Positions 13,243 through 47,871 of a DNA stretch of 64,000 bases are shown here, piece after piece (position 1 is the stretch's first letter; every line of letters begins with the position of its first letter). The DNA comes from Parcubacteria group bacterium M6-OD1-3 (GTDB lineage Bacteria; Patescibacteriota; Minisyncoccia; Moranbacterales; UBA9337). The notes beneath the pieces are model-generated. The model was not told where the DNA came from. It ran no database searches and was given only the letters and a program-made list of their open reading frames with translations. Made by a program: the position numbers and the translations under genes. The DNA lies in contig LSNR01000014.1 in NCBI GenBank assembly GCA_003056165.1, positions 70,408 to 134,407 on the forward strand, read 5' to 3'.

Positions 13243-13307
13243 TATAAATAATCTGTTGGAATATAATAAATATAATAAATAAATATAATAAATATTTAGA
13301 TAAATAT

Positions 13308-13787
13308 ATGAGTGAAATTAAAGTCAATATTGAAAATGAGGATGAAGACAATAAATCTAATGAATTTAGTAATAGCGATAAAGATAGTAGAAATAATTCG
13401 GAAAAAAATAAAGTAACTATCTTATTAGCAGAAGATGATGAATTCATTAGAGATATTTATAATCGTATTTTTAAGATGAATGGGTATGAAGTTGTGTTAG
13501 CAACCAATGGCTTGGAAGCAATGAAGAAAATGGAAAAAATAACGCCTGATTTAATATTATTGGATGTTATGATGCCTTATCAAAATGGTAAAGAAGTTTT
13601 TAAAAAAATTAAAAAAGATGATCGATTAAAAAATATTCCCGTAGTTTTTTTGACGAATGTTTCCGCCGAAGATGATATAGAAAAAGAATTGCTGGAGCAG
13701 GCCGATAAATATTTAATTAAAGCGCATTTTACGCCCAAAGAAGTTGTGGCGGAAGTTGCTCTTTTGTTGAAAAATAAAAATGAATAA
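13308..13787 (+). CDS. Single-domain response regulator (CheY-like receiver, PilH/PilG-like) with an acidic N-terminal extension
   Basis: VTILLAEDDEFIRD…LILLDVMMPYQNGKEV…KNIPVVFLTNVS matches the receiver-domain signature, with D and K at the expected positions. It lies between pilB and pilT and overlaps the pilT start by 8 nt. Confidence 0.85.
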   Translation: MSEIKVNIENEDEDNKSNEFSNSDKDSRNNSEKNKVTILLAEDDEFIRDIYNRIFKMNGYEVVLATNGLEAMKKMEKITPDLILLDVMMPYQNGKEVFKKIKKDDRLKNIPVVFLTNVSAEDDIEKELLEQADKYLIKAHFTPKEVVAEVALLLKNKNE

Positions 13788-14862
13788 TACATTGCGCGTC
13801 GGACAAAAATTAAAAAGTTATCTGTTAATAGTGGCTCAACAAAATGCTTCGGATTTACATCTAGTTGTAGGTCGACATCCTACCATTAGAGTTGATGGAA
13901 GACTAATTCCCCTTGCTGAAGAAGAGATTTTAACTCCAGAAAAAACGAAAGAATTTAGTAAAATATTGTTAACAGAAAACAATGAGCGAGAAATGTTGGA
14001 AAAGGGACAAATAAATTTTTCTTATGATTTTGAAGGTAAAGCCAGATTTAGAACTAGTGTTTATTTTCAGCAAGGAAACTTGAGTATAGCAATGCGATTG
14101 ATTCAAAATAAAATAAGAACTCTCGAGGAATTGGATGTTACTACGAACTTGTATGATTTTGCAAAATATTCGCAGGGACTTGTTTTAATTACTGGACCAG
14201 TTGGACATGGAAAATCAACAACTTTAGCTGCAATAGTAGAACACATTAATCACAATTATGATAAGCATATACTTACTATCGAAGACCCTATTGAATATGT
14301 CTACCAACAAGATCGTTGTATTATTAACCAGAGAGAGATCGGTCGAGATGTCAAAAGCTTCCCTTCTGCATTAAGGGGTGTCTTCAGAGAAGATGTGAAT
14401 GTTGTTCTTATCGGAGAAATGCGAGACTTAGATACAATTAGTACAACAATGACTGCAGCTGAAACCGGACATTTAATTTTTGCTACATTGCATACTAATA
14501 ATAGCGCACAAACAGTAGACAGAATTGTTGATGTTTTCCCATCACATCAGCAAAATCAAATTAGGTCTCAACTAGCGAATGTTTTATTAGGAGTTTTGTC
14601 TCAAAGGTTGGTTCCGCGGATAGGTGGAGGAAGGGTTCCAGCAGTAGAGATTATGTTAAAAAATCATGCTGTAGGAAATCTCATTAGAGATAATAGATCT
14701 TATCAGATAGATTCAGTGATAGAGACGAGTCTTAAAGAGGGGATGGTTTCTCTAGACAGATCATTGGGGGAATTGGTAAAAAATGGTATAATTTCTATAG
14801 ATGATGCCTTTGCTTACACTGGTAACAAAGAATATTTGAAGACAATAATAAAAAATAAATAA
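13780..14862 (+). CDS. pilT: Twitching-motility (retraction) ATPase PilT
   Basis: Walker A GPVGHGKST and a 360-aa length; PilT/PilU family pattern. Confidence 0.9.
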   Translation: MNNTLRVGQKLKSYLLIVAQQNASDLHLVVGRHPTIRVDGRLIPLAEEEILTPEKTKEFSKILLTENNEREMLEKGQINFSYDFEGKARFRTSVYFQQGNLSIAMRLIQNKIRTLEELDVTTNLYDFAKYSQGLVLITGPVGHGKSTTLAAIVEHINHNYDKHILTIEDPIEYVYQQDRCIINQREIGRDVKSFPSALRGVFREDVNVVLIGEMRDLDTISTTMTAAETGHLIFATLHTNNSAQTVDRIVDVFPSHQQNQIRSQLANVLLGVLSQRLVPRIGGGRVPAVEIMLKNHAVGNLIRDNRSYQIDSVIETSLKEGMVSLDRSLGELVKNGIISIDDAFAYTGNKEYLKTIIKNK

Positions 14863-14897
14863 ATTAATAGATAACGGTAAATAGTTATAATAATATT

Positions 14898-16106
14898 ATG
14901 AGATTCAAATTTAAGGCAAAAGATAAAAAAAATAAAATACAAAGTGGCGTAGTAGATGCAATAAGTAAAGAATTAGCTGTCCAAGTCTTACAAGAAAATG
15001 ATTTGAATGCTATCCTAATTGAAAGAGAAACAGGCGATTCTCCGTTGAGTCAATATTTGCATAAGTCTTGGGAAAAGGTAGGTAAAAAAGATTTGTTAGT
15101 ATTTTTTCGACAATTTCATGCTTTAATATCTTCTAAAGTGCCTGTTGTTTATTCTCTTCGGGCAATTGGTGACCAAACTGAACACAAATATTTAAGTAGT
15201 CTAATTAAGGATATTGCTAATGATGTTGAGGATGGTACAACTTTTTCAGAAGCATTGGGAAGATATCCAGATGTTTTTCCTAAAGTTGTAACTAGCGTTA
15301 TTAATGCTGGAGAGGTTTCTGGTAATTTAGAGGAGGCTATCAAACATGTTGCAGAAAGTACAGAAAAAAATTATCGCATTACTGCTAAGATAAGGGGAGC
15401 GTTGATTTATCCGGCTTTTATTCTGACAGCAGCTTTGATTGTCGGGTTTTTGAGTGTTGTAATTATTGTGCCAAAATTAACTTTGATCATTAAAGATCTG
15501 AATGCAGAAGTTCCATGGTATACGCATATGGTGATAGGCATCGGAGATTTTATGCAGGCTTATTGGTGGGCAGTATTAGTGGTAATTTTTGGTTTTATAA
15601 TTGCTGTTGCTTATTATGTTAAAACAGAAGCTGGTCATAAGGAATGGGATAAAATACAATTAGAATTGCCAATTATTGGAAAATTGTTTCGGTATCTTTA
15701 TTTGACAAAATTTGCTAATAACTTTGTAGTGATTTTAGATGGTGGTGTGCCAATAGTTCAATCACTTAATATCGTTGCAGAAGTAGTTAATAATAGTATT
15801 TATCAAGGAATAATACTTCGTTGTGCTGATGAAGTTAAAACCGGAGGAAATATTAGTACAGTGCTTGCTCAATCAGATTATATTCCTGGCATTGTTACGA
15901 AAATGGTAATAGTAGGTGAGAAAACTGGAAAAATTAGTGAATCATTAGGTAGTGTGGGAAATTTTTATGAACAAGAAATGGATGAGATGATTAAAAATTT
16001 ATCGGTTTTAATTGAGCCAGTTTTAATTGTTGGATTGGGATTAGGTGTGGCGTTTTTAGCATTTTCGATTATTTTGCCGATTTATAATGTAGTGCAGAAT
16101 TTCTAA
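14898..16106 (+). CDS. pilC: Type IV pilus inner-membrane platform protein PilC/GspF
   Basis: 402 aa with two GspF repeats and three TM segments. Confidence 0.88.
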   Translation: MRFKFKAKDKKNKIQSGVVDAISKELAVQVLQENDLNAILIERETGDSPLSQYLHKSWEKVGKKDLLVFFRQFHALISSKVPVVYSLRAIGDQTEHKYLSSLIKDIANDVEDGTTFSEALGRYPDVFPKVVTSVINAGEVSGNLEEAIKHVAESTEKNYRITAKIRGALIYPAFILTAALIVGFLSVVIIVPKLTLIIKDLNAEVPWYTHMVIGIGDFMQAYWWAVLVVIFGFIIAVAYYVKTEAGHKEWDKIQLELPIIGKLFRYLYLTKFANNFVVILDGGVPIVQSLNIVAEVVNNSIYQGIILRCADEVKTGGNISTVLAQSDYIPGIVTKMVIVGEKTGKISESLGSVGNFYEQEMDEMIKNLSVLIEPVLIVGLGLGVAFLAFSIILPIYNVVQNF

Positions 16107-16259: not shown

Positions 16260-16661
16260 ATGAAAAAATCAAATAAGAAATTGTCCGGTTTCACCTTGAT
16301 TGAGCTTTTGATTGTTATTGCAATCATTGGTATTCTAGCCTCCATTGTATTGGTGAGTTTGAATAGTGCAAGACAGAAAGCGAAAGATTCTGGTGTTATG
16401 GCATCTGTTAGTTCTACCGTACCTGCTGCTGTAATTTGTATGGACGATGGAATTGCATTAACTTCTCCCGCAGGAACTGGAGCAACACCTGTTTGTACAG
16501 GATCAGATAGCAACTGGCCTGACATTACCAATTCTGACGCAAGTGCATCATGGGGCGGTTGTTCTAATGACTTGACGACTAGTGATGGAACATTTCAATA
16601 TTGTGCAACTGATGGATCAAGTAATGTTATAACCTGTACCCAAAATGGCTGTACTAAATAA
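16260..16661 (+). CDS. Type IV (major) pilin, prepilin with class III signal peptide
   Basis: …KKLSG|[20 protein letters not shown]… shows a canonical G/FTLIE cleavage-site motif with E at +5. The C-terminus is Cys-containing. Confidence 0.85.
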
Positions 16662-16841
16662 TATTTCAGAATTTTCTTTGGAGCTTGCTAATTTTGTTTT
16701 TGTATAATAATTTAAAATTGGCAAGCAAATAGAGAGTTTTATTTTTCGTGGTGCAATGTTTTATTTTTAATAATAACTAAAGTAAGGCAACAGATTGATT
16801 TGCAATATAGCTTAATTATTTACTGAATGAATGCAGTTTTT

Positions 16842-17261
16842 ATGTTAAAAATACAAAAAAACAACTCAGGATTTACATTAATTGAGCTTTTAATTGTTAT
16901 TGCGATTATTGGTATCTTAGCCTCGATTGTATTAATTAGTTTGAATAGTGCGAGACAAAAGGCAAAGGATGCTAATTTTAAAAGTTTGGCGTCTTCACTG
17001 AATTCCGCCATTATGATGTGTTGTAATTCTGGGGGGAATATCCAAACACTTGTTAGTGGGGCTATTTGTAATCCCTCTAGTGCTGGAGAAAATTATCCAA
17101 ATAGTGAAAATATAAACAGCATTGATATTAGTACTGGAACGAATAGTCAATGTAATAATCAAAATTATCAAGTAACAATTACTCCCGGAACGAAAAATCA
17201 TGGAAATTGTACTAATATTACACTTAATCAAACGGGAATTATTAATTATACCGGATGCTAA
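16842..17261 (+). CDS. Type IV pilin paralog (start most likely at [10 protein letters not shown]|FTLIELL; the track start at 16827 is also possible)
   Basis: The N-terminal ~35 residues are nearly identical to pilin 16260 ([34 protein letters not shown]), with synonymous DNA differences. The C-terminal domain is divergent and Cys-rich. Confidence 0.8.
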
Positions 17262-17292: not shown

Positions 17293-18099
17293 TTGTTTAA
17301 ATATATGACACTAATATTTTTTATAGCAGGATTGATTATCGGAAGTTTTTTGAATGTAGTGGTCTATCGATTGCGATTGACTGAGACTATTTTAGGTCGT
17401 TCACATTGTCCACACTGTAAGGCAAAAATTAAATGGTATGATAATATTCCATTGCTTAGTTTTGTCTTACTTCGAGCAAAATGTCGAACTTGCAATGGTG
17501 TAATTTCTTGGCGATATCCATTGGTAGAACTTTTTACCGGAATTATTTTTGCTCTTGTCGGAAAATATTTTTTCGTTCTAGGGAATAACTTCTCTTATTG
17601 GCAAACTGGTTTTTATTTATTAATATTTTCTTTATTTTTAGTTTTATTGTCTTATGACTGGCAATTTATGGAGATGCCAGTGATAATCTTTTGGATTTTA
17701 TTGGGGGTTAGTGTGACTTATCTGATTTTTATCAGCCTTAATGAATATCTTATAGGGGTGGATTTTTATAGACTGAGTTTATTTTCTGGATTAATTGGTG
17801 GTGTTATATCTTGGACCTTTTTCTTTTTATTAGTATTTTTTTCTAAGGAAAAATGGATGGGTTGGGGAGATGTTTATGTAGGATTCTTAGCTGGTCTAAT
17901 TCTAGGTTGGCAGAATATTATGCTTGGATTATTATTATCATTTATGATTGGTTCAATCTGTGCTATAATAATTGTAGTACTCAAAAAGGGAACGATGAAA
18001 AGTCAAATTCCGTTCATTCCTTTTTTAGTTATGGGGACAATTATAACTGTGTTTATTAATCAAGCTTTTCCGGAAATAATTCGGTATTTGTATTTCTAA
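17293..18099 (+). CDS. pilD: Prepilin peptidase PilD (A24 family)
   Basis: Zn-binding CPHCKAKI…CRTCNG motif near the N-terminus and multiple TM helices. Confidence 0.85.
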   Translation: MFKYMTLIFFIAGLIIGSFLNVVVYRLRLTETILGRSHCPHCKAKIKWYDNIPLLSFVLLRAKCRTCNGVISWRYPLVELFTGIIFALVGKYFFVLGNNFSYWQTGFYLLIFSLFLVLLSYDWQFMEMPVIIFWILLGVSVTYLIFISLNEYLIGVDFYRLSLFSGLIGGVISWTFFFLLVFFSKEKWMGWGDVYVGFLAGLILGWQNIMLGLLLSFMIGSICAIIIVVLKKGTMKSQIPFIPFLVMGTIITVFINQAFPEIIRYLYF

Positions 18100-18100
18100 G

Positions 18101-18589
18101 ATGCTTAAAATTAAAAAAAAAATAAAATTAAAAAAAGGATTTACCCTAATGGAAGTGTTATTGGTTCTGGCAATTATTAGCATTATGACAGGTGCAGTCT
18201 TGTCTTATGTTGGTCAAAGTAATCATAATACAGAATTAGAAACAGTCGCTAATGAGATTGTAGCTTCTATTAGAAAAATTCAAAATTATTCTTTATCGGG
18301 CAAAGAAGTTACTCCTGGTTGTGCGAAATACAGATTTATTGCAGTTAGTGGAACAAATAGTTTTACAATTGATAATGGTGGCGGTGCGACTTGTTCTTTT
18401 AATGAAGTTCATCAACTTAAGAATGCTGTTACTTTTAGTAGTAATGTCAATTTAGAATTTAATGTTCCATTTGGTAATAGAAGTATAACTAATCCAGTTG
18501 ATATTACAATAACAAAAAATAGCAATAATAATTATCATATTTGTGTGACTGGTGTTGGAGTTATAACAATGCAAAAAGCATCCTGCTAA
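18101..18589 (+). CDS. Minor pilin / pseudopilin
   Basis: KKG|FTLMEVLLVLAIISIM prepilin N-terminus. Confidence 0.7.
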   Translation: MLKIKKKIKLKKGFTLMEVLLVLAIISIMTGAVLSYVGQSNHNTELETVANEIVASIRKIQNYSLSGKEVTPGCAKYRFIAVSGTNSFTIDNGGGATCSFNEVHQLKNAVTFSSNVNLEFNVPFGNRSITNPVDITITKNSNNNYHICVTGVGVITMQKASC

Positions 18590-18612
18590 GATTTTTTAAG
18601 ATATATAATAAA

Positions 18613-19170
18613 ATGATTAATCTACAAAATAATAAAAAAGAAAAAGGTTTTTCAATGGGTGAAGTGCTGATCTCAGTTTTTATTCTAGGAGTGACGATGG
18701 TAACTATTTTGCAGTTATTTGTTACTAGTTTAAAAAATTTTGCAGAAACAAGAGATAGTATTATTGCCTCAATGTTGGCTCAGGAGGGAATAGAATTGGT
18801 TAAAAATATTAGAGATAATAACTGGGTAAATGGGAATCTTACTTTTAATAACATAGAAAAAACGGACAATTATGCTTGTGCTATTGATATTGACAATATT
18901 TCTTGCGGGTCAGTAAACAGAGTTGATTGCAGATTTCCTGCTACAGCAGAGACTAATTGTTCATTGTATTTCAATAATAATAAATATACATATGCACATA
19001 ATACTGGAACAAAAACAAAATTCAAAAGAGAGGTAGAAATTAAGAGTAATCCTAGGATTATAACTAGTAAAGTTAGTTGGGCCCCTGGTAAAGTGCCAGG
19101 TACTTCAAACTGCAATATTACTAATAAATGTGTATTTTCGAGAACAATTTTGACAAAATGGGGAGAATAA
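18613..19170 (+). CDS. Minor pilin (PilV-like); start at the internal Met MINLQ…
   Basis: EKG|FSMGEVLISVFILGV prepilin motif. The track ORF 18541 begins upstream and overlaps the previous gene. Confidence 0.65.
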   Translation: MINLQNNKKEKGFSMGEVLISVFILGVTMVTILQLFVTSLKNFAETRDSIIASMLAQEGIELVKNIRDNNWVNGNLTFNNIEKTDNYACAIDIDNISCGSVNRVDCRFPATAETNCSLYFNNNKYTYAHNTGTKTKFKREVEIKSNPRIITSKVSWAPGKVPGTSNCNITNKCVFSRTILTKWGE

Positions 19171-19176
19171 AAACAT

Positions 19177-19752
19177 ATGAAAAATTTAATGCGAATACAA
19201 AAAGAAAAAAATAAATACACTAAGCGAAAAGCTTTTACGCTTGTAGAAGTTATTGTGGCGATGTTTATATTTGTTTTAGTCATATCTGGGTCAACAATTG
19301 TTTTTGCTAACACATTCAAAGCTTATCAATCTTCCAAACATATGCAAGAAAGTTTGGAAAATGCACAGTATGCATTAAGTTTATTGTCAAAAACATTTAG
19401 GACAAGTTCCGTAGTTGATGTCGCTGGAGATAAATCTAGCGTAACAGTATTTAATTATTCTCGTAATGAATGTGTGAAGTATAGTTTTTCTGGGGGAACT
19501 TTGCAGCAGGAGACGAGCGGAGCACTCGGAATATCTGCCTGTGCTGGGATGACATTTACCACAAACGATGTTATGACTAGTGGAAATGTAACTGGGAAAT
19601 TTTATGCTAGTAAAAGCGTCAAAAAAGGATCACCTGGTGCTAAGGTTGGTATGATAACTGTGACTATGACTATTATTTCAGGTAATAGTAAAATCAATAT
19701 TCAAACATCATCTTCACTTAGGGATTATGGTGTATCGGATATTACATTATAA
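19177..19752 (+). CDS. Minor pilin (PilW/GspJ-like)
   Basis: KRKA|FTLVEVIVAMFIFVL prepilin motif. Confidence 0.65.
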   Translation: MKNLMRIQKEKNKYTKRKAFTLVEVIVAMFIFVLVISGSTIVFANTFKAYQSSKHMQESLENAQYALSLLSKTFRTSSVVDVAGDKSSVTVFNYSRNECVKYSFSGGTLQQETSGALGISACAGMTFTTNDVMTSGNVTGKFYASKSVKKGSPGAKVGMITVTMTIISGNSKINIQTSSSLRDYGVSDITL

Positions 19753-19768
19753 ATAATATCGAAAATTT

Positions 19769-20215
19769 ATGTTATATAATTTTAAAATTAAAAAACACAG
19801 CAAAAAAGGTTCTGTTCTCATTTTTACATTGTTTATAATGATGATTAGCTTGGTTGCCGGAATTGGTATCATTTCCGTTTCCAACTTTGATAGACAGAGT
19901 TCTCTCTCTACAACAAAAACAGTTAATTCATTTCAAATTGCTGATATGGGGCTGGAAAGAGCATTGAATGCAATTAAAAATGAATCGCCAGCGAAAAGAA
20001 TAAATCAGATAGTATTTTTTAAAGATGATTGTAGCTCCGGCGAGGTAGCAAAGGATGCTTTTGGTGGTTTTGGAACTTATATAATAACATTCTATGATAG
20101 TGCGGATACTCAATTACAATGTGATGATACAATCGGTGACATTAAAAGTATAAAATCTGTTGGAAAATATAAAGGAACTAATCGTGCCGTGGAAGTAGTC
20201 TTACCTTCGCCTTAG
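19769..20215 (+). CDS. PilX-like minor pilin (non-canonical, no E at +5)
   Basis: KKG|SVLIFTLFIMMISLVAGIG hydrophobic N-terminus; last gene of the pilus operon. Confidence 0.5.
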   Translation: MLYNFKIKKHSKKGSVLIFTLFIMMISLVAGIGIISVSNFDRQSSLSTTKTVNSFQIADMGLERALNAIKNESPAKRINQIVFFKDDCSSGEVAKDAFGGFGTYIITFYDSADTQLQCDDTIGDIKSIKSVGKYKGTNRAVEVVLPSP

Positions 20216-29231: not shown

Positions 29232-29401
29232 ATTTCCTCAAAAACTCACATTTAATTAGAACATAGGTCTTCTTTTAAAGGGAGAAATTTTTTATAGAAG
29301 TTCCTTTTTTCAAGAAAATAGTGTACAATATGAACAGAGAGATGACTTGTTGCTAAAACAAAAAGTAGAATTTAAAAATTCTAAAAAAATAAAAAAAGAG
29401 G

Positions 29402-30799
29402 ATGCTATTAAAGCAAATAAAAATAAATAATAGAATCTGGCAGAGGAATAAAAAGGGAACGTCTTTGATTGAAGCCCTAGTTTTAATATTTGTTTTTTCG
29501 GTGGCAGTACTCTCATTTTACTCTGTATTTAGTTTAAGTGTACGCTATATTACGCAGTCAAAAGATAGAACGGTGGCTATATCATTAGCGAATGAAAGAA
29601 TGGAATTGTTGCGTAATTTGAGTTATGATGATGTGGCTATTATTGGTGGTATTCCAAATGGAAATGTTAATCCAGATGAAACAGTTACTGTTGGGAATAA
29701 AAGCTTTCATATTATTACTGATATTAAATATTATGATGACCCCGATGATGGAATATTTGGAGGTTCTCCTAGTGATATAATCCCGACTGACTACAAAACA
29801 GCATTGATTGTTGTTGCCTGGGGTGGAGAAAGCTCTTCGGAAAAAGTGTCATTGTCATCACGATTTGTACCTCCGGGAGTAGAAACTAATGTTGGCGGAG
29901 GGACATTGTCATTAAATGCAATCGATTTTTCTGGCACTCCAGTTGCTAATGTTTCGGTAAATTTGGTTAATACCAGCCTTTCTCCAAATGTTAATTATAA
30001 TACTAATATGGACTCCAATGGAAATATTTTATTACAAGGAGTTCCTGCAGATAGTAATCAGAACTATCAGATAACACTTTCTAAAAGCGGTTACGAAACT
30101 GTAAAAACATATCCACCAGTGGGAGCGGGATTTATTCCAAAAGATACACATATGTCAATTGTGGAAGGTGTTTTGAATAGTGAAACTTTGGAAATAAATT
30201 TGCTGGCAACCTTAAAAATAAAAAGTGTTGACCCTTTTGGTATGGAAATTAGTAATGCAACTTTTGATTTGACAGGGGGTAGAAGACTGGATGATGGAAC
30301 GGCTACCGCTGTATATAGTTATAATGATTCGGAGTCAACTAATAGTGATGGAGATTTTTCGTTAGATGATGAAAGTCCAGGTGAGTATATAGTTGATATT
30401 ACTGGAACCACTGATACGGATTATACCTTTTGGAAGCTTAGTCCTGGAACTGATTCTGACAATAAAAAAGTTAATTTATCTCCGGGAGCTACACAAAGTT
30501 CAGATATGATTTTAATGGATAAAAATTTAGATTCGGCATTTATTACTGCTACAAATGGAGCTACAGGAGATTTCGTAGAAGGAGCTCATATAAACCTAAA
30601 GAATAATACACTTAGCTATGATGTCACTCTAGATACTGATAAATATGGAACGGTTTATTTCCCCGAAACGCTTGATGTTCCTTTACAAAATGGGGAAACA
30701 TATGATTTAAAAATTACCGCTGATGGTTATGATGATTTAACTGATACGATTACAATCAATAAATATACCAATAAAGATGTAACATTAACTGCACAATAA
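29402..30799 (+). CDS. Large pseudopilin/minor pilin (465 aa) with a prepilin-type N-terminus
   Basis: KKG|TSLIEALVLIFVFSVAVL has E at +5 and is followed by a large extracellular domain. Confidence 0.6.
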   Translation: MLLKQIKINNRIWQRNKKGTSLIEALVLIFVFSVAVLSFYSVFSLSVRYITQSKDRTVAISLANERMELLRNLSYDDVAIIGGIPNGNVNPDETVTVGNKSFHIITDIKYYDDPDDGIFGGSPSDIIPTDYKTALIVVAWGGESSSEKVSLSSRFVPPGVETNVGGGTLSLNAIDFSGTPVANVSVNLVNTSLSPNVNYNTNMDSNGNILLQGVPADSNQNYQITLSKSGYETVKTYPPVGAGFIPKDTHMSIVEGVLNSETLEINLLATLKIKSVDPFGMEISNATFDLTGGRRLDDGTATAVYSYNDSESTNSDGDFSLDDESPGEYIVDITGTTDTDYTFWKLSPGTDSDNKKVNLSPGATQSSDMILMDKNLDSAFITATNGATGDFVEGAHINLKNNTLSYDVTLDTDKYGTVYFPETLDVPLQNGETYDLKITADGYDDLTDTITINKYTNKDVTLTAQ

Positions 30800-30813
30800 T
30801 CTTATTTTGCTTT

Positions 30814-31434
30814 GTGAATAAATTAAATAAAAATAAAATTTTGACTAGAAAGGGTATGAGCTTCGTGGAGATGATTATTGCTATAGGAATATTTTCCTTA
30901 ATGATGATTGGAATTACTATGTTTTTCATTAAGTCTTGGAATAATTATAATTATGTTATGGATACAAATTCAAGTTCCATTTCTGCAAGTCAGGGGATTA
31001 GTAAGATTGTTAATAATATTCGTAAGGCAAGAAGTGCTGATAATGGAGCTTATCCTATTAAATCTGTAAACGATTTTGATTTAGTTATTTTTAGTGATTA
31101 TGATAGAGATGGAGTTACTGAGAAAATGCACTATTATTTAAATAGTGGAAATTTGATGCTTGGAATAAGTGAGCCAAATGGCGTGCCACCAACTTATCCA
31201 AACGGAGATACAACAACAAGCACGGTCGTACTCAATGTAATAAATGATGCTTCTCATCCGATTTTCTATTATTATGATAGTACTAATAATGTCATTAATA
31301 ATCCAACTGCAAATCTAGCAAGTATTAGAATGATTAAAATTAGCTTAACAGTTCAAGGAAATTCAGCTAATGATGTTAACACAGAATCTTTTGCATCGTT
31401 ACGCAACTTAAATGAAAATGATACTATACAATAA
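30814..31434 (+). CDS. Pseudopilin/minor pilin
   Basis: TRKG|MSFVEMIIAIGIFSLMM prepilin motif. Confidence 0.65.
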   Translation: MNKLNKNKILTRKGMSFVEMIIAIGIFSLMMIGITMFFIKSWNNYNYVMDTNSSSISASQGISKIVNNIRKARSADNGAYPIKSVNDFDLVIFSDYDRDGVTEKMHYYLNSGNLMLGISEPNGVPPTYPNGDTTTSTVVLNVINDASHPIFYYYDSTNNVINNPTANLASIRMIKISLTVQGNSANDVNTESFASLRNLNENDTIQ

Positions 31435-31440
31435 AAAATT

Positions 31441-32937
31441 ATGAAATATTATTCTAAAAATAAAAAAGGTTCAATGTTAGCATATGCTCTCATCGTGATT
31501 TCAATTGTCAGTATTCTTTTAACATCCTCGATGAAAATAGTCGTGTCGCATATGAAGTATGGGCTAACAAGAGCTTCACAGGAAGAATCTTTGCAGATTG
31601 CTGAAGCAGGAATTTATTTTTATCGTTGGTACTTGGCACATAAGGTTGAGGGTTTAACAAAAAAACAAGTCCGAGTATTTTGGTCATCGGGAAATGCTTA
31701 TGGAGTGGATAGTGCTTATGAGGATGATTTCAATGGAGTAGGAAAATATAGTATTACTGTTACGCCACCAGAAGCAAACTCGACTATTGTTGTAGTTAAA
31801 TCTGTTGGTTGGAGTTATAAATATCCAAATATCAAAAGGACAGTACAAGTTCGTTTTCGACAACCTTCCTGGAGTGAATTTTCTGTTTTATGCGATTCCA
31901 ATATTCGTTTTGGAGCGGGAACTGAAGTCAATGGACCAATTCATAGTAATGGCGGAATTAGATTTGACGGTTTAGCTCATAATATTATAAGTAGTTCTGT
32001 GCAAAGTTATAATGACACAGATTCTGACGCTTGCAATGGAAATAATGAATTCGGTGTGCACACTTGTTTGCCTACTGCTGATCCAGCTTACCCAAATCCT
32101 GTCCCGAGTAGACCAGATGTTTTTGAGGCCGGAAGAACATTTCCAACTGTGGAAAAAGATTTTGATGGGGTTTTAGCTGATATTGCCGATATGAAAAATG
32201 AAGCCGGATGTTCTAATGTAGGTAGCTATTGTAGTAGTGATCATATTGTTGCTACAAACGGGATTTATTTTAATAATAGTGGTGTCGGTAGACATATTCA
32301 ATTGCAAGCTGATGGGAATTTTAGGATACGAACTATTCAATCGTATAATACTATCTTTAACAATATTGTTAATTATTCTGGTTCATGGCAAACATTTGCC
32401 ATCCCTGATGGGGGAATAATATTCGTAGAGGATAATGTTTGGGTAGAAGGAAAAATTAATAATAAAAGTGTAACAATTGTTTCGGCAGATCTTTCTGGAG
32501 GCTCAGATAGAAATATTTTTTTGCAAAATGATTTAGAATACACTAATTATGACGGGAGTGATATAATAGGATTGATTGCACAAGGTGATGTTGAAGTTAT
32601 TAAAGATAGTGAAAATGATTTGAGAATTGATGCCGCACTATTAGCTCAAAACGGGAGAGTGGGGCGAGAATATTATTCGCTGGTGTCATGGGGCTGGTTT
32701 GGCTGGGGAACATGTCCTTGTAATTGGTCATGGTGTGAAGATCATAAAGATACCATTACAGTTTATGGATCAATTGCTACTAAAAAAAGATATGGTTTTG
32801 CTTGGGGCGATGGTTGTCCAAGAAGCACTGGCTACACTAATAGAATTTTAATATATGATAATAATTTGCTATATTATCCTCCACCATATTTTCCGACAGG
32901 AACAAATTACGCCATTGATCTTTGGAATGAATTATAA
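31441..32937 (+). CDS. Large PilX-like pseudopilin (498 aa)
   Basis: KKG|SMLAYALIVISIVSILL hydrophobic N-terminus with no E at +5, and a large Cys-containing extracellular domain. Confidence 0.5.
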   Translation: MKYYSKNKKGSMLAYALIVISIVSILLTSSMKIVVSHMKYGLTRASQEESLQIAEAGIYFYRWYLAHKVEGLTKKQVRVFWSSGNAYGVDSAYEDDFNGVGKYSITVTPPEANSTIVVVKSVGWSYKYPNIKRTVQVRFRQPSWSEFSVLCDSNIRFGAGTEVNGPIHSNGGIRFDGLAHNIISSSVQSYNDTDSDACNGNNEFGVHTCLPTADPAYPNPVPSRPDVFEAGRTFPTVEKDFDGVLADIADMKNEAGCSNVGSYCSSDHIVATNGIYFNNSGVGRHIQLQADGNFRIRTIQSYNTIFNNIVNYSGSWQTFAIPDGGIIFVEDNVWVEGKINNKSVTIVSADLSGGSDRNIFLQNDLEYTNYDGSDIIGLIAQGDVEVIKDSENDLRIDAALLAQNGRVGREYYSLVSWGWFGWGTCPCNWSWCEDHKDTITVYGSIATKKRYGFAWGDGCPRSTGYTNRILIYDNNLLYYPPPYFPTGTNYAIDLWNEL

Positions 32938-32955
32938 AAATAAAAAATATTAAAT

Positions 32956-34020
32956 ATGAGTTTTTTAAGTAAAAAAGTAGTAAGTTTTTCTGATGATGTT
33001 ATTGGATTGGACATAGGTGCAACATCTGTAAAAGCTATCCATCTAGAAGATGGAGTAATTAAAAATTATGGATTTAGAGACATCCCCAATAGTGTCATTG
33101 TAAATGGAAAAATTATTAATGAAAAAAAATTGTCTGAAATAGTGAATATTGTTATCAATGAAGCAAAACCTAACAAAATGAAAACTAAAAAAGTTATTTG
33201 TTCAATTTCAGAGTCAAAATCATTTTTGCGCTTAATTTCTGTGCCAACAATGAATCAAGATGAATTAAGTGAAGCTGTAAAATGGGAAATAGAAGCAAAT
33301 ATTCCACTTTCGGTAGATCAAGTATATTATGATTGGAAAGTTATTGATGATATTTTTCCTAAAGATGACGGAAGGGTACATATTCTAGTTTTAGCAGCTG
33401 CTAAAAAAGTTGTTAAGCAAGTTTTAAATATCGTTGATAATGCTGGACTTGAGACTATTGGAATTGAATCTGAATCTACTGCATTGGTGCGAGCTTTGTC
33501 GGATGATAAGAATAAAAAAACAGTTTTAATTATTGAGTTGGGAAGAAATAAAACAACTTTTGTTTTTGCTATTAAAAATGTTCCTTGTTTTACCTCAAGC
33601 ATACCAGTTTCTGAACAAATGATTGTGAGTCAAATAGCTAAAAAGTTTAATGTTTCTAATGAAAAGGCAAGAAAACTTGAAGAGAAAAATGGAATAAATT
33701 CATTTTTTGAAGATGAATATCTTTTTTCTTCGATAGAGCCAGCCCTAAAAAATCTTGTTAGTGAAATAGAAAAAACTATAGATTTCTATCTAGAAGGTTT
33801 GAGATATTCAGAGGCAGTTGATGAAATAATTGTTTGTGGAAAAATGTCAAAAGAAAAAAATGTTATTACATATTTGTCAAAAAAATTAAAGAGAGAAATT
33901 AAGGTTGGAAATATATTAGCTGGGCTAAATTCTGATAAAAAAGTATTACCAATTATAAAAAGAGAGGTTGCGATACAATACGCAACAGCAATTGGACTAA
34001 CATTAGATTGCAATGAATAA
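32956..34020 (+). CDS. PilM paralog (second copy)
   Basis: VIGLDIGATSVKAIHLEDG actin-like N-terminus. Length 354 aa. Confidence 0.75.
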   Translation: MSFLSKKVVSFSDDVIGLDIGATSVKAIHLEDGVIKNYGFRDIPNSVIVNGKIINEKKLSEIVNIVINEAKPNKMKTKKVICSISESKSFLRLISVPTMNQDELSEAVKWEIEANIPLSVDQVYYDWKVIDDIFPKDDGRVHILVLAAAKKVVKQVLNIVDNAGLETIGIESESTALVRALSDDKNKKTVLIIELGRNKTTFVFAIKNVPCFTSSIPVSEQMIVSQIAKKFNVSNEKARKLEEKNGINSFFEDEYLFSSIEPALKNLVSEIEKTIDFYLEGLRYSEAVDEIIVCGKMSKEKNVITYLSKKLKREIKVGNILAGLNSDKKVLPIIKREVAIQYATAIGLTLDCNE

Positions 34021-34052
34021 ATATTAAAATTTTATTATAGATAAAAAGTAAA

Positions 34053-34613
34053 ATGAAAATAAAATTAAATCTTTTGCCCGAGAAAAGAGTAAAAGAGATG
34101 AAAAAAAAGAATATCTTGAGATTTGTAATCTGGCAAGAAATAGTGGTTATTTTTATGGTGGGAATGTTTCTTGTTATGATTAAGAGTGCTGATGTTGTAA
34201 TAAATTTGCGATTAAGTAGCTTAGATCAACAACTTTCATCCCTGAAGCTAGGAAGTGATTTTAAAAAAATAGATAAATATGAAAGTAATTTTCGCGGTGT
34301 AAATAAAAAACTTTTTTTAGTTGAGAAAGTGCAACGAGATAATATTGATTGGTTGAATATTTTTAATGATATAAATGACGCCGTTCCTGATGGTATAACA
34401 ATTGATTCGCTAGAGAATAACAATCATACAGTATCGATGACGGGAATAGCAACAACAAGGGATCGTTTAATAGTATTAAAAGGCAACCTTGATAAAATAG
34501 ACTGTTTTACAAAAGTTAATGTACCATTAAATGATATTGTTTTAAAAAAAAATATTGATTTTCAAATAGATTTTAAAGTAATCAATAAATGTTTATCAGA
34601 TTATGAAAAATAA
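34053..34613 (+). CDS. PilN-like paralog
   Basis: Basic N-terminus plus one TM helix (VVIFMVGMFLVMI), positioned after the PilM paralog. Confidence 0.5.
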   Translation: MKIKLNLLPEKRVKEMKKKNILRFVIWQEIVVIFMVGMFLVMIKSADVVINLRLSSLDQQLSSLKLGSDFKKIDKYESNFRGVNKKLFLVEKVQRDNIDWLNIFNDINDAVPDGITIDSLENNNHTVSMTGIATTRDRLIVLKGNLDKIDCFTKVNVPLNDIVLKKNIDFQIDFKVINKCLSDYEK

Positions 34614-35295
34614 AAATTTATTTATACAATATAAAATATATTTTATTGGAGGTGGATTGCTAATTTTAATCGTGGCTATGGTTTTTTTAGTCGTTAAACC
34701 AGCATTTAACAAGCTCAATAATGATAGCGATGCCGTACAAAAAAAAGCTTTAGATATGCAAATTGAGAAAAGTAAATTATCCAAATTATCGGAGCTTAGG
34801 CAAAAATTTAGCATTATTGAATCCGAGCAGGATAAATTAGATATTTTATTTACTGATGATAAAATTGTTGATTTAGTCCAAGAATTGGAATATGTAGCTG
34901 ACAAAACGAATAATGATATTTCGATTAAAATTGAAGAATTAGTCAAGAAGAAAAAGAATGGGCAGTTAAAAAATACGCTAGAAGATGATTCACTTACTAA
35001 TTTTAAAGATGAAGATTATTTTGAAATGGAAATAAGTTTAACAGGAAATTACGAAAATTTATTACGATTTATCCATAAACTCGATAATATGCCATATTAT
35101 AATAGTTTGTTAAAATTCAATATTACTGTTACCGAAATTGATGTTAAAAATGATAAAAAAACAATTATGCCAAATAATATTAGTATTAATTTATTCAACG
35201 GAAACAAAATTAACAATAGCAGTCAAGATGTCCCAGAAAATAAGAAAAAAGTCTTACAGTCTAAATTAAGTGTAATTTTTTATTTAAATAAATGA
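34603..35295 (+). CDS. PilO-like paralog
   Basis: TM helix (IGGGLLILIVAMVFLVV) followed by a coiled coil. Confidence 0.45.
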   Translation: MKNKNLFIQYKIYFIGGGLLILIVAMVFLVVKPAFNKLNNDSDAVQKKALDMQIEKSKLSKLSELRQKFSIIESEQDKLDILFTDDKIVDLVQELEYVADKTNNDISIKIEELVKKKKNGQLKNTLEDDSLTNFKDEDYFEMEISLTGNYENLLRFIHKLDNMPYYNSLLKFNITVTEIDVKNDKKTIMPNNISINLFNGNKINNSSQDVPENKKKVLQSKLSVIFYLNK

Positions 35296-35633
35296 GTACT
35301 CAAAAAACAAAAAATAATATAGCTAGTCTTTTCAAATTAGCTAAATTGAAAATTACAAAATCATTGTGGAATTATTTGTTTAGAAAATCTGGATCGATCG
35401 TGATGACTTTGTTTATTGTAATTTCAATTGTTAGCGGTTTTCTTATCTATAAATATCTTTATTCTTCTGGATGGAACGACACCAAAAAACATAACTATTT
35501 AAAAGAGGCGAGCAAAAATGATGTTGACTTTAATATGAAAAAATTCGAAAAAGTTATTAAAAATATAGAAAAGAGAACTAATAATTATAAAAAAACAGAG
35601 CCATCGGAAGTAAAAGATATTTTTCGGTTTTAA
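35292..35633 (+). CDS. Small single-TM protein, last gene of the second pilus-like operon
   Basis: 113 aa with one TM helix; translationally coupled to the upstream gene. Confidence 0.4.
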   Translation: MSTQKTKNNIASLFKLAKLKITKSLWNYLFRKSGSIVMTLFIVISIVSGFLIYKYLYSSGWNDTKKHNYLKEASKNDVDFNMKKFEKVIKNIEKRTNNYKKTEPSEVKDIFRF

Positions 35634-35640
35634 AAATAAA

Positions 35641-35670
35641 AAACGACTTGAATTAAGTCGTTTTTTATTT
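35641..35670. terminator. Bidirectional hairpin terminator between the second pilus-like operon and the tRNA genes
   Basis: AAACGACTT-gaatt-AAGTCGTTTTTT. Confidence 0.55.
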
Positions 35671-35685
35671 TTGCCTATATTGATG

Positions 35686-35757
35686 TGCCCTCGCCAGGAC
35701 TCGAACCTGGAACGCTTGGTCCGAAGCCAAGTGTGATATCCATTTCACCACGGGGGC
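35686..35757 (-). tRNA. tRNA-Arg (anticodon UCG)
   Basis: The reverse complement folds as a cloverleaf with anticodon arm CTTGG-CTTCGGA-CCAAG and a GTTCGAGT T-loop. No encoded CCA. Confidence 0.8.
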
Positions 35758-35764
35758 GTTTTCT

Positions 35765-47865: not shown

Positions 47866-47871
47866 ACAAAT

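What the first reader, a model, noticed from the sequence alone, without database searches (positions are those of the whole stretch)
29402..35633. Second pilus-like or pseudopilus system with no ATPase: three pseudopilins (two very large, 465 and 498 aa) plus a second PilM/N/O-like set
A separate operon encodes three proteins with prepilin-type N-termini (KKG|TSLIEALV…, RKG|MSFVEMII…, KKG|SMLAYALI…), followed by PilM/N/O-like paralogs and a small TM protein. Two of the pseudopilins are far larger than typical minor pilins, so they could be tip adhesins or a DNA-uptake or secretion pseudopilus. The absence of a dedicated PilB/PilT pair implies the system shares the ATPases of the first locus. 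Two complete PilMNO platforms in a small genome is unusual.
Basis: partly seen in the sequence, partly recalled or inferred. Interest (0 to 1): 0.65.

Follow-up and report, generated by a model that had tools for sequence, protein, structure and literature searches.

The report
Second type IV pilus module, giant tip pilins
This seven-gene operon in an ultra-small (CPR, Moranbacteria) bacterium encodes a second type IV pilus module, with three enlarged tip pilins and its own PilM/N/O platform; such second pili are already known in related bacteria, but this version has an unusual ComZ-like tip protein and no motor genes next to it.

Summary
Positions 29402-35633 carry seven tightly packed plus-strand genes: three prepilin-type proteins (465, 206 and 498 aa), PilM (above the NCBIfam cut-off), PilN (above the Pfam cut-off), a weakly supported PilO-like protein and a conserved 113-aa single-pass membrane protein. 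A strong terminator hairpin follows.

The three pilins are enlarged paralogues, in the same order, of the PilV/W/X-like minor pilins of the first pilus locus.
- The 465-aa protein is a pilin module followed by three Ig-like adhesin-stalk domains.
- The 498-aa protein is a PilX/GspK-type pilin without Glu5, followed by a large beta-solenoid. Its only significant PDB match is ComZ, the proposed tip DNA receptor of Thermus.

The cassette is conserved in about 80 Moranbacteria species and occurs in Saccharibacteria, next to recA/recX and ruvABC/comEC. It corresponds to the "T4P-2" type described in Saccharibacteria TM7x.

In most relatives it sits directly behind its own pilC2, and often pilB2. 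The window's subclade has neither nearby. So "no ATPase" is true locally, but it is a derived state, and genome-wide absence is unproven.

The most likely function is a ligand-binding tip complex with a dedicated platform for a second pilus. Adhesion is favoured over DNA capture. I rate it a new variant of a known kind, of moderate interest.

The parts
29232..29401 (+). 170-nt A/T-rich intergenic region upstream of the operon. It is the presumed promoter region and has an AGAGG immediately before the ATG.
   Evidence: Read directly. The promoter scan gives only consensus-level matches. Function not shown.
29402..30799 (+). PilV2-like modular minor pilin (465 aa). It has a class III signal (KKG|TSLIE), a pilin module to about residue 155, and then three Ig-like (CarboxypepD_reg / CnaB / prealbumin-type) domains.
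   Evidence: TIGR02523 PilV N-terminal match, E = 5.9e-7; PF13620 E = 6.9e-13. AlphaFold pLDDT 89. Foldseek matches to Gram-positive pilin and adhesin stalks (6fwv 2.5e-15, 4oq1, 3kpt). The N-terminus aligns with the locus-1 pilin at 18625-19170, 96% probability.
30814..31434 (+). PilW2-like minor pilin (206 aa) with a class III signal (RKG|MSFVE). The GTG start is needed to include the leader.
   Evidence: E19 is invariant and G(-1) conserved in 41 homologues. hhalign to the locus-1 pilin at 19177-19752 gives 94.6%. Pfam N_methyl is weak. The NCBI gene call of 187 aa lacks the leader.
31441..32937 (+). PilX2/GspK-type tip pilin with a ComZ-like beta-solenoid (498 aa). It has a KKG|SMLAY leader and no Glu5.
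   Evidence: AlphaFold pLDDT 85, pTM 0.83. The only significant PDB matches are the two ComZ chains of 6qvi (E = 4.8e-10 and 6.5e-10, probability 1.0), followed by ice-binding-protein solenoids. Residues 2-142 align with the whole 148-aa locus-1 pilin at 19769-20215, 93.7%. It is the most conserved cassette protein (median 51% identity; 80 invariant columns).
32956..34020 (+). PilM2, the actin-like cytoplasmic platform protein.
   Evidence: PF11104 E = 2.5e-36; TIGR01175 138.7 bits against a cut-off of 133. It is 24% identical to PilM1 at 8664-9779.
34053..34613 (+). PilN2, a bitopic platform protein with an N-terminal LNLLP PilM-binding-type motif.
   Evidence: PF05137 E = 4.8e-9, above the cut-off. 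Motif read. No BLASTP similarity to PilN1.
34603..35295 (+). PilO2-like bitopic protein (assignment weak).
   Evidence: Pfam PilO E = 0.055 and GspM E = 0.055. The family profile hits PDB PilO chains 3jc8, 5uvr and 2rjz at E = 0.012-0.053. hhalign to PilO1 gives 80%. Its position after PilN is conserved in 71 of 82 loci.
35292..35633 (+). Conserved 113-aa single-pass membrane protein: a basic N-terminus, a TM segment at about 35-55, then a Y-x-Y-x-x-W-(S/N)-x-E-x-K motif. Role unknown.
   Evidence: No family match. An ORF of the same size and topology follows PilO2 in 59 of 65 loci, and these cluster as one family in 67 of 82 loci. A 94-aa counterpart occurs in Saccharibacteria.
35631..35673 (.). 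Intrinsic-terminator hairpin with flanking A- and U-runs, so probably bidirectional. It ends the operon and faces the tRNA-Arg and tRNA-His genes on the minus strand.
   Evidence: RNA fold dG -19 kcal/mol, z = -10.8. tRNAs at 35685-35837.
17293..18099 (+). Prepilin peptidase PilD (locus 1), the inferred trans-acting partner that cleaves the three prepilins.
   Evidence: PF06750 E = 4e-32 and PF01478. It is the only copy in the window. Its use by locus 2 is inferred.
11566..16106 (+). Locus-1 motor and platform genes: PilB (11566-13242), response regulator (13308-13787), PilT (13780-14862) and PilC (14898-16106). They are candidate trans partners if no unlinked pilB2/pilC2 exists.
   Evidence: Pfam T2SSE, MshEN, Response_reg and T2SSF. 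They are paralogous, not orthologous, to the cassette-linked PilB2/PilC2 of relatives (44% and 30% identity).
16260..17261 (+). Two tandem major-pilin-like genes (16260-16661, 133 aa; 16827-17261, 144 aa). They are candidate fibre subunits, because locus 2 has no major pilin of its own.
   Evidence: PF07963 E = 5e-9 and 2e-10. N-termini [22 protein letters not shown]. Their use by locus 2 is inferred.
18541..20215 (+). Compact paralogous trio of locus 1: PilV1-like (18541-19170), PilW1-like (19177-19752) and PilX1-like without Glu5 (19769-20215). The order matches the three locus-2 pilins.
   Evidence: hhalign probabilities 96%, 94.6% and 93.7%. N-termini.

Best explanation
The operon is the pilin and platform half of a second, "T4P-2-type" type IV pilus system that is ancient in CPR bacteria.

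The three pilins are enlarged paralogues of the PilV/W/X-like (GspI/J/K-like) trio of locus 1. By analogy with that trio, I infer the following steps:
1. PilD cleaves them.
2. They assemble through their N-terminal helices into the complex that primes and caps a pilus.
3. The Glu5-less 498-aa protein sits at the very tip and displays a rigid ComZ-like beta-solenoid.
4. The 465-aa protein contributes a three-domain Ig-like stalk.

PilM2, PilN2, the PilO2-like protein and the conserved 113-aa membrane protein form a dedicated inner-membrane platform, which loads this tip complex rather than the locus-1 one. The fibre itself must be built from a major pilin encoded elsewhere, possibly one of the two tandem pilins at 16260-17261. 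It must be driven by a PilB/PilC pair encoded elsewhere: either the locus-1 pair or an unlinked pilB2/pilC2. I rate these two about equally likely.

The most likely job of the tip is to bind an external, evolutionarily conserved ligand on a host cell or surface. That is, it is an adhesion pilus like T4P-2 of Saccharibacteria TM7x.

Shown: gene content, signal motifs, paralogy, predicted folds and synteny. Inferred: complex formation, tip position, partners in trans and the ligand.
For: - Identity of the parts.
- Paralogy with the locus-1 trio, in the same order.
- Folds: the 498-aa protein matches ComZ (E = 4.8e-10), then ice-binding-type solenoids and tapirin adhesin domains. The 465-aa protein matches CnaB/prealbumin stalk domains of Gram-positive pilins and adhesins. 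Longer homologues carry extra domains.
- Operon structure and terminator.
- Conservation of all seven genes in order in 67-82 of 82 Moranbacteria loci.
- The same cassette, with its own pilB2, pilC2 and a major pilin, occurs in Saccharibacteria next to recA/recX. This matches the description of TM7x "T4P locus two" (PMC12206443).
- In TM7x, T4P-2 makes thin pili needed for normal host binding but not for twitching or competence. Its PilX proteins also carry extra C-terminal domains and lack a predicted PilD site (PMC12206443).
- The globular parts of all three pilins are strongly acidic: net -16, -36 and -6, with family medians -15, -30 and -12. This fits extracellular adhesin modules better than a DNA binder.
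- Within the subclade that lacks adjacent pilB2/pilC2, all seven genes stay intact at 53-75% identity across species. The cassette is therefore under selection without a linked motor.
Against: - No experiment exists on any member of these pilin families.
- The PilO assignment is weak.
- The cassette contains no major pilin and no motor, so its autonomy is unknown.
- The 498-aa protein is the most conserved protein of the cassette (median 51%, against 26-41% for the others). That is unusual for a host-specific adhesin and would fit a universal ligand such as DNA or a common glycan.
- The only significant structural relative, ComZ, is a DNA-binding competence protein (PMC6561018).
- The Foldseek TM-scores to ComZ are low (0.29-0.30), so the match rests on local 3Di similarity.
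- I could not inspect the model coordinates.
Confidence: 0.5

Rival explanations
1. It is a competence (DNA-capture) pilus. The 498-aa ComZ-like protein would be a tip DNA receptor that hands DNA to ComEC. This would supply nucleotides and DNA to an organism that cannot make nucleotides and often lacks ComEA.
For: - ComZ is the only significant PDB match (E = 4.8e-10). ComZ binds DNA and is proposed to cap the Thermus competence pilus together with the adjacent GspI-like PilA2 (PMC6561018).
- The gene order I-J-K-like is the same.
- The Saccharibacteria version of the cassette is flanked by recA/recX on one side and ruvB-ruvA-ruvC-yebC-comEC on the other.
- The high conservation of the 498-aa family fits a universal ligand.
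- ComEA is annotated in only 31% of CPR genomes, which prompted the suggestion of an alternative DNA-binding mechanism (PMC6744442).
Against: - There is no sequence similarity to ComZ (profile against PDB sequences).
- The net charge of the globular part is -16 (family median -15), and the partner pilins are -36 and -6.
- In TM7x, all T4P-2 mutants, including the pilB2 deletion, keep wild-type transformation (PMC12206443). TM7x, however, lacks this solenoid pilin.
- The recA/ruv/comEC neighbourhood was seen in one lineage only. In tiny genomes it may be coincidental.
Confidence: 0.25
2. It is a T2SS-like pseudopilus: a short piston made of a GspI/J/K-like tip on a GspL/M-like (PilM+N / PilO) platform, used for protein export rather than as an extended pilus.
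For: - The trio is GspI/J/K-like in order, and the third member lacks Glu5.
- There is no major pilin and no retraction ATPase in the cassette.
- A few PilO2 homologues hit T2SS protein M profiles.
Against: - CPR lack a secretin and an outer membrane (PMC6744442).
- The Saccharibacteria cassette includes a canonical major pilin, and T4P-2 of TM7x forms visible thin pili (PMC12206443).
- Bulky Ig-stalk and solenoid modules make sense on an exposed tip, not on a piston.
- PilM matches the T4aP subfamily model above its cut-off.
Confidence: 0.07
3. It is a decaying remnant: after losing pilB2/pilC2, the cassette is no longer functional in this lineage.
For: The dedicated pilC2 and pilB2 found next to the cassette in other Moranbacteria are missing here and in the whole subclade.
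Against: - All seven ORFs are intact, tightly spaced and followed by a terminator.
- They are identical in three independent assemblies.
- They are retained intact in at least 10 species of the subclade at 53-75% identity.
Confidence: 0.03

Closest known systems
T4P-2 of Saccharibacteria Nanosynbacter lyticus TM7x (loci two and three; ISME J 2025, PMC12206443)
   Same: - It is a second T4aP-type machinery with pilM2/N2/O2 beside an essential locus one (pilM1N1O1-pilB1-pilT-pilC1-pilD plus pilins).
- The second locus has no PilT.
- Its PilX-type minor pilins carry extra C-terminal domains and have no canonical PilD site.
- A Saccharibacteria contig carries the same V-W-X-M-N-O-small-protein cassette next to recA/recX.
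   Different: - TM7x keeps pilB2/pilC2 in the locus, and its T4P-2 pilins lie in a separate locus. Its PilX2 has a beta-propeller and its PilX1 a jelly-roll, not a solenoid.
- Here the pilins are fused into one operon with the platform, the motor genes are absent locally, and a conserved seventh small membrane protein is present.
- Orthology of M2/N2/O2 with the TM7x genes is inferred from synteny. It was not tested on TM7x sequences.
ComZ / PilA2 competence pilins of Thermus thermophilus (PDB 6QVI, 6QVF; PMC6561018)
   Same: - A GspK-like pilin module without Glu5 joined to a large triangular beta-solenoid whose nearest other relatives are ice-binding proteins.
- It is encoded after GspI- and GspJ-like pilins.
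- On steric grounds it is predicted to fit only at the tip.
   Different: - There is no detectable sequence similarity, and TM-scores are about 0.3.
- In ComZ the solenoid is inserted before the last strand of the pilin fold. Here it follows the part that aligns with the compact paralogue, and whether the last strand (491-497) returns to the pilin sheet is untested.
- The organism is monoderm-like with no secretin.
- The surface is strongly acidic, and DNA binding is untested.
GspI-GspJ-GspK tip complex of T2SS, and the PilV-PilW-PilX(-PilY1) priming complex of T4aP (for example Myxococcus, PMC7541494)
   Same: Three consecutive minor (pseudo)pilin genes in I-J-K order, with the last lacking Glu5 and carrying an extra domain. 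They are expected to prime and cap the filament.
   Different: - No GspH/FimU-like fourth pilin and no PilY1 in the cassette.
- The first and third members are 2-3 times the usual size.
- The trio is linked to a dedicated PilMNO set rather than to other pilin genes.
Modular type IV pilins (Streptococcus sanguinis PilB with a vWA module, PilC with a lectin module; PMC8179133)
   Same: A pilin module with functional modules grafted onto its C-terminus, in a monoderm T4P.
   Different: - The modules here are CnaB/prealbumin-type Ig domains and a beta-solenoid.
- No metal-binding vWA or lectin module was detected in this protein, although one longer homologue carries a Laminin_G_3 domain.
Thermus thermophilus wide and narrow pili made by one machinery (PMC7203116)
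   Same: A precedent for one motor and platform set assembling two different pili. This is what motor sharing would require here.
   Different: In Thermus only the major pilin differs. Here the platform (PilMNO) and the tip trio are duplicated, and the motor may not be.

Membership tests
Type IVa pilus-type machinery (T4aP; the "T4P-2" type of Patescibacteria) | Prepilin (class III) signal: short basic leader, Gly at -1, hydrophobic alpha-1N, Glu at +5 | tested here: met
   V465 has KKG|TSLIE and W206 has RKG|MSFVE. G(-1) and E(+5) are conserved in 37 and 41 homologues. X498 has G(-1) but Tyr at +5, as in GspK/PilX-type pilins. Long N-terminal helices appear in the models.
Type IVa pilus-type machinery (T4aP; the "T4P-2" type of Patescibacteria) | Prepilin peptidase PilD in the genome | tested here: met
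   17293-18099: PF06750 E = 4e-32 and PF01478.
Type IVa pilus-type machinery (T4aP; the "T4P-2" type of Patescibacteria) | PilM (actin-like) and PilN (bitopic, with an INLLP-type N-terminus) | tested here: met
   TIGR01175 138.7 bits against a cut-off of 133; PF11104 E = 2.5e-36; PF05137 36.6 bits against 22.8; the N-terminus MKIKLNLLPEK.
Type IVa pilus-type machinery (T4aP; the "T4P-2" type of Patescibacteria) | PilO | tested here: inconclusive
   Pfam PilO 14.1 bits against a cut-off of 22. The profile hits PDB PilO chains at E = 0.012-0.053. hhalign to PilO1 gives 80%. Only 2 of 38 homologues hit T2SSM.
Type IVa pilus-type machinery (T4aP; the "T4P-2" type of Patescibacteria) | Dedicated extension ATPase PilB and platform protein PilC | tested here: not met
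   There is none in or near the cassette and no remnant. The only copies in the window are the paralogous locus-1 genes. Nothing was found in the 8 kb left of the window. This feature is met in relatives: PilC2 in 62 and PilB2 in 24 of 82 loci. The rest of this genome was not searchable.
Type IVa pilus-type machinery (T4aP; the "T4P-2" type of Patescibacteria) | Major pilin forming a filament | not testable with these tools
   There is no small major pilin in the cassette. Two candidates lie in locus 1 (16260 and 16827). The Saccharibacteria cassette has its own 146-aa pilin. Filament formation needs microscopy.
ComZ-like tip pilin (Thermus thermophilus) | GspK-like pilin module lacking Glu5 | tested here: met
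   Tyr at +5. A weak PilX_N match. Residues 2-142 align with the compact PilX1-like paralogue, 93.7%.
ComZ-like tip pilin (Thermus thermophilus) | Large beta-solenoid of the ice-binding-protein type joined to the pilin module | tested here: met
   Foldseek: 6qvi E = 4.8e-10 with probability 1.0, followed by ice-binding proteins 6eio, 9lhr and 5uyt. The model has pLDDT 85. TM-scores are only 0.29-0.30.
ComZ-like tip pilin (Thermus thermophilus) | Solenoid inserted between the penultimate and last strands of the pilin sheet | tested here: inconclusive
ComZ-like tip pilin (Thermus thermophilus) | Sequence homology to ComZ | tested here: not met
   The profile of 36 homologues against all PDB sequences did not find ComZ at E <= 1.
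ComZ-like tip pilin (Thermus thermophilus) | DNA binding | not testable with these tools
   Only indirect evidence: the globular part has a net charge of -16. An EMSA is needed.
T2SS pseudopilus (GspG-K with GspC/D/L/M) | Secretin GspD, GspC and a major pseudopilin GspG in the system | tested here: not met
   None was found among the window ORFs scanned. CPR lack PilQ-type secretins (PMC6744442).
Com (ComG) competence pilus of monoderms | comGA-GG operon organisation without PilM/N/O | tested here: not met
   PilM and PilN are present. The ComGE model hits are weak matches to N-terminal helices only (E = 0.003-0.03, against a cut-off of 49 bits).
Modular type IV pilins | A complete pilin module with one or more independently folding modules grafted on | tested here: met
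   V465 has a helix at 22-71 and a sheet to about residue 155, then three beta-sandwich domains. X498 has a pilin module at 1-142 and then the solenoid.

The most novel reading that the evidence does not exclude
The 498-aa family (about 1,700 clusters at 50% identity in public data) is a CPR-wide pilus-tip DNA receptor, structurally equivalent to Thermus ComZ. It would capture environmental or host DNA for ComEC and so stand in for the ComEA that most CPR genomes lack.

In the window's subclade, its dedicated PilMNO platform has lost its own motor and plugs into the single PilB/PilT/PilC set of locus 1. One motor would then serve two alternative platforms and tips.
Probability: 0.15. Interest if true: 0.75.

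Novelty: new variant of a known kind. Interest (0 to 1): 0.45.

Why it matters
CPR/Patescibacteria make up a large share of bacterial diversity. They live attached to other cells and cannot make nucleotides, and type IV pili are thought to be central to both attachment and DNA scavenging. Outside Saccharibacteria almost nothing is known about what these pili carry at their tips.

This analysis defines a conserved, CPR-wide seven-gene module:
- an enlarged PilV/W/X trio;
- PilM2/N2/O2;
- a small membrane protein.

It also gives fold-level predictions for the two giant pilins, namely an Ig-like stalk and a ComZ-like solenoid. It shows that the module has been uncoupled from its motor genes step by step during Moranbacteria evolution.

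These results give concrete proteins to test for host binding or DNA binding. They also provide a natural test case for whether one T4P motor can serve two platforms.

Tried and rejected
Tools and searches that led nowhere:
- Profile searches of the 498-aa and 206-aa families against PDB sequences gave nothing useful.
- Scanning 38 PilO2 homologues one by one against Pfam gave almost no PilO or GspM hits. The PilO assignment rests on the family profile.
- Look-ups of two window-edge proteins failed because no identical gene call is on record.
- A left-edge look-up extended the view by 8 kb. It showed six T4SS_pilin-family genes but no pilB2/pilC2.
- The listing of cluster members gave no taxonomy for distant members of the 498-aa family.

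A search I decided not to run:
- I considered spending the third large protein search on PilC2 or PilB2, to look for an unlinked copy in this organism.
- PilC2 and PilB2 are 55-80% identical across hundreds of Moranbacteria, and only the best 120 hits are listed.
- A copy from the divergent window subclade would almost certainly not appear, so a negative result would mean nothing.

Interpretations rejected:
- Ordinary Sec signal peptides, because G(-1) and E(+5) are conserved and the models show pilin helices.
- A recent duplication of locus 1, because PilM1 and PilM2 are only 24% identical and the PilN and PilO pairs cannot be aligned by BLASTP.
- Horizontal acquisition, because G+C content is the same as in the flanks.
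- A Com pilus, a T2SS or a Tad system (see the membership tests).

Full report
**Source and setting**

The window is from a low-G+C (about 32%) Moranbacteria (CPR/Patescibacteria) metagenome-assembled genome. Identical genes occur on LSNT01000019.1 of GCA_003056105.1 and in two other assemblies. The closest relatives are all labelled Moranbacteria or Parcubacteria. Almost all genes lie on the + strand.

**Locus 1 (8664-20215): a complete T4aP-type set**
- PilM1, PilN1 and PilO1.
- PilB, with an MshEN domain.
- A response regulator.
- PilT and PilC.
- Two tandem major-pilin-like genes.
- PilD.
- Four minor pilins. The last (19769-20215, 148 aa) lacks Glu5.

Housekeeping genes follow (ligA, gatA, trxB-like, ilvA-like and malic enzyme). 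The finding begins after them.

**Check of the observation**

The seven ORFs are exactly where stated. They are spaced by 14, 6, 18, 32, -11 and -4 nt. A 170-nt intergenic region precedes them. A hairpin at 35631-35673 follows (dG -19 kcal/mol, z = -10.8), flanked by A- and U-runs and facing two tRNA genes on the other strand. It is therefore one operon.

The N-termini are class III signals.
- G(-1) and E(+5) are conserved in alignments of 37 and 41 homologues of the 465- and 206-aa proteins.
- The 498-aa family keeps G(-1) but has Tyr at +5. This is the hallmark of GspK/PilX-type tip pilins (established knowledge of T2SS and T4P minor pilins).
- AlphaFold models show N-terminal helices of 50-57 residues followed by a small sheet.
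- The public gene call for the 206-aa protein (187 aa) starts inside the helix and omits the leader. The conserved leader shows that the GTG start at 30814 is right.

The platform assignments differ in strength.
- PilM2 passes the NCBIfam T4aP PilM model (138.7 against 133 bits).
- PilN2 passes Pfam PilN and starts with MKIKLNLLPEK, the PilM-binding type of N-terminus.
- The PilO assignment is weak but consistent: Pfam E = 0.055; the family profile against three solved PilO chains at E = 0.012-0.053; hhalign to PilO1 at 80%.
- The 113-aa protein has no family. An ORF of the same size and topology, with the same motif after its TM segment, follows PilO2 in 59 of 65 loci and clusters as one family in 67 of 82 loci. 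It is a seventh conserved component.

**What the three pilins are**

Profile-profile comparison shows that they are paralogues of the last three minor pilins of locus 1, in the same order.
- The N-terminus of the 465-aa family matches 18625-19170 (96%).
- The 206-aa family matches 19177-19752 (94.6%).
- Residues 2-142 of the 498-aa family match the entire 148-aa protein at 19769-20215 (93.7%).

Locus 2 therefore carries an enlarged PilV/W/X-like (GspI/J/K-like) trio.

The 465-aa protein:
- The model has pLDDT 89.
- It has a pilin module to about residue 155, followed by three beta-sandwich domains (Pfam CarboxypepD_reg, SpaA, PEGA).
- Its Foldseek matches are the CnaB/prealbumin stalk domains of Gram-positive sortase pilins and adhesins (6fwv 2.5e-15, 4oq1, 3kpt, SpaA, PitA).
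- Longer homologues of 570-790 aa carry extra domains.

The 498-aa protein:
- The model has pLDDT 85 and pTM 0.83.
- It consists of the pilin module plus a beta-rich region of about 350 residues.
- Its only significant PDB matches are the two chains of ComZ of Thermus thermophilus (6qvi, E = 4.8e-10 and 6.5e-10, probability 1.0).
- Ice-binding-protein solenoids come next, and tapirin adhesin domains appear lower down.
- The ComZ paper reports the same pattern: a GspK-like pilin domain plus a solenoid whose nearest relative is an ice-binding protein. In that paper the protein is argued to fit only at the pilus tip, and it binds DNA (PMC6561018).
- TM-scores are low (about 0.3), and there is no sequence similarity to ComZ. 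I therefore call it ComZ-like in architecture, not a ComZ family member.

**Comparative genomics**

The 498-aa family is large.
- It has more than 3,200 hits in the 90%-clustered database.
- It has 1,681 representatives at 50% clustering (320 at E <= 1e-30).
- It is named at best "PilX N-terminal domain-containing protein".

A scan of species-representative genomes gave 276 loci, of which 80 were fetched. The order V-W-X-M2-N2-O2-small protein is conserved in essentially all of them.

The region upstream takes three forms:
1. Histidine kinase, response regulator, PilB2, PilC2, then the cassette (about 24-27 loci).
2. PilC2 then the cassette, with no adjacent PilB2 (about 35 loci). One of these has a PilB2-type gene 9 kb downstream (L049).
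3. The cassette alone.

Form 3 is confined to the window's own subclade. All 10 loci with at least 60% identity in the 498-aa protein and enough upstream sequence belong to it (L004-L009, L058, L084-L086). Every more distant locus with enough upstream sequence has PilC2.

The cassette-linked motor genes are paralogues of the window's, not orthologues.
- PilB2 proteins are 74-77% identical to each other but 44% identical to the window's PilB.
- PilC2 proteins are 59-72% identical to each other but about 30% identical to the window's PilC.

The window contains no second copy or remnant, and neither do the 8 kb to its left.

Within the subclade the seven proteins remain 53-75% identical between species, so the cassette is maintained without a linked motor. 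PilM2 and the 206-aa pilin are more diverged between the subclade and the other groups (42-43% and 38-41%) than those groups are from each other (52% and 48%). The 498-aa protein is not (50-53%). This is a weak hint of a change of partners.

**Link to Saccharibacteria**

A Saccharibacteria homologue of the 465-aa protein (P0217) lies in this locus:
- recA, an unknown gene and recX, divergently oriented.
- Then PilB2, PilC2, a canonical 146-aa pilin, V (519 aa), W (202 aa), X (527 aa), PilM, PilN, PilO and a 94-aa protein.
- Then, convergently oriented, ruvB, ruvA, ruvC, yebC and comEC.

The Moranbacteria profiles recognise X at 1.4e-66, V at 2.2e-58 and W at 4.9e-7.

This matches the published description of "T4P locus two" of TM7x (pilC2, pilB2, pilM2N2O2, recAX). 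In TM7x:
- T4P-2 makes thin pili.
- It is needed for normal host binding but not for twitching or transformation.
- It has no PilT.
- PilX1 and PilX2 carry extra C-terminal domains and have no predicted PilD site (PMC12206443).

The module is therefore ancient in CPR, and two PilMNO sets in one small genome are the rule in these lineages, not an oddity.

**Mechanism**

Shown:
- The parts and their signals.
- Their paralogy with the locus-1 trio.
- The predicted folds.
- Operon structure.
- Deep conservation of the cassette.
- The stepwise uncoupling from pilB2/pilC2.

Inferred from the GspIJK and PilVWX paradigm (Korotkov and Hol's GspIJK structure as cited in PMC6561018; Myxococcus priming complex, PMC7541494):
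- After cleavage by PilD, the trio forms a helix-bundle complex that primes and caps a pilus.
- The Glu5-less solenoid protein sits on top.
- The Ig-like stalk lies beside or below it.
- PilM2/N2/O2 and the small protein form the platform that selects this trio.

The fibre subunit and the motor must come from elsewhere. The subunit may be one of the two tandem pilins of locus 1. The motor could be PilB/PilC of locus 1 or an unlinked pilB2/pilC2. I could not decide between these and rate them about equal.

**Function of the tip**

For adhesion:
- The TM7x precedent.
- Adhesin-type stalk domains.
- A solenoid fold shared with tapirins.
- Strongly acidic globular parts (net -16, -36 and -6; family medians -15, -30 and -12).

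For DNA capture:
- ComZ is the only significant structural relative.
- The Saccharibacteria cassette has recA/ruv/comEC neighbours.
- The solenoid pilin is unusually well conserved. It is the best-conserved protein of the cassette (median 51%, with 80 invariant columns among 36 sequences).
- ComEA is rare in CPR (PMC6744442).

Against DNA capture:
- The negative charge.
- The lack of sequence similarity to ComZ.
- Normal competence of T4P-2 mutants in TM7x, although TM7x lacks this pilin.

I put adhesion to a conserved external ligand at about 0.5 and DNA capture at about 0.25. A T2SS-like pseudopilus and a decaying remnant are unlikely.

**Novelty and verdict**

The general idea is known: a second T4P system in CPR, with modular minor pilins. 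I found no paper on Moranbacteria pili.

New here:
- The definition of the conserved seven-gene module and its seventh component.
- The recognition of the trio as enlarged paralogues of the locus-1 trio.
- The ComZ-like and Ig-stalk architectures.
- The clade-specific loss of linkage to the motor genes.

I rate the finding a new variant of a known kind, with interest about 0.45.

Noticed in passing
window 45281-50578: A small island with lower G+C (0.28-0.29). It encodes a Bro-N domain protein, a ClpP-like SDH-type protease, two unknown proteins, a C-5 cytosine DNA methylase (48544-49554) and an adjacent 340-aa protein with no family. It is probably a mobile element with a restriction-modification pair.
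   Followed up: no
window 2124-8496: Three large proteins (489, 577 and 911 aa) with Sec-type signal peptides and no family match lie directly upstream of PilM1. In LSNT01000019.1 the 577-aa ORF is called as two genes of 290 and 241 aa. This points to a frameshift or an assembly difference between assemblies.
   Followed up: partly
L089 2657-6699 (contig LSNT01000019.1, just left of the window): Six consecutive genes match the T4SS_pilin family (PF18895), the first only weakly, a few kb upstream of the T4P loci. A relative (L084) has three such genes next to its cassette.
   Followed up: no
window 30814-31434: The public gene call for this pilin (187 aa) starts inside the hydrophobic helix and omits the conserved prepilin leader. 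The GTG start at 30814 restores it.
   Followed up: yes
window 16260-17261: Two tandem major-pilin-like genes (133 and 144 aa) have nearly identical N-terminal helices. One might supply the fibre for the second system.
   Followed up: no
window 13308-13787: A stand-alone response regulator is encoded between PilB and PilT in locus 1. In relatives, a different response regulator (with a histidine kinase in one architecture) sits immediately upstream of pilB2 or of the cassette.
   Followed up: partly
L084 (JBPLAT010000034.1) 8773-14129: In this relative (73% identical in the 498-aa protein) the cassette starts with the solenoid pilin. No V- or W-type pilin gene lies upstream, so the trio can be split.
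   Followed up: no
L014, L017 and about 20-34 other loci, flanks of the cassette: uvrA (34 loci), uvrC (25), exonuclease III (22), rarA (20) and an unknown protein of about 307 aa (motif YYDVLDYPLT, 31 loci) recur near the cassette. This is probably inherited synteny within one clade rather than a functional link.
   Followed up: partly
window 1-64000: Nearly all credible genes are on the + strand, and cumulative GC skew rises monotonically. The whole window therefore lies on one replichore with strong strand bias.
   Followed up: no
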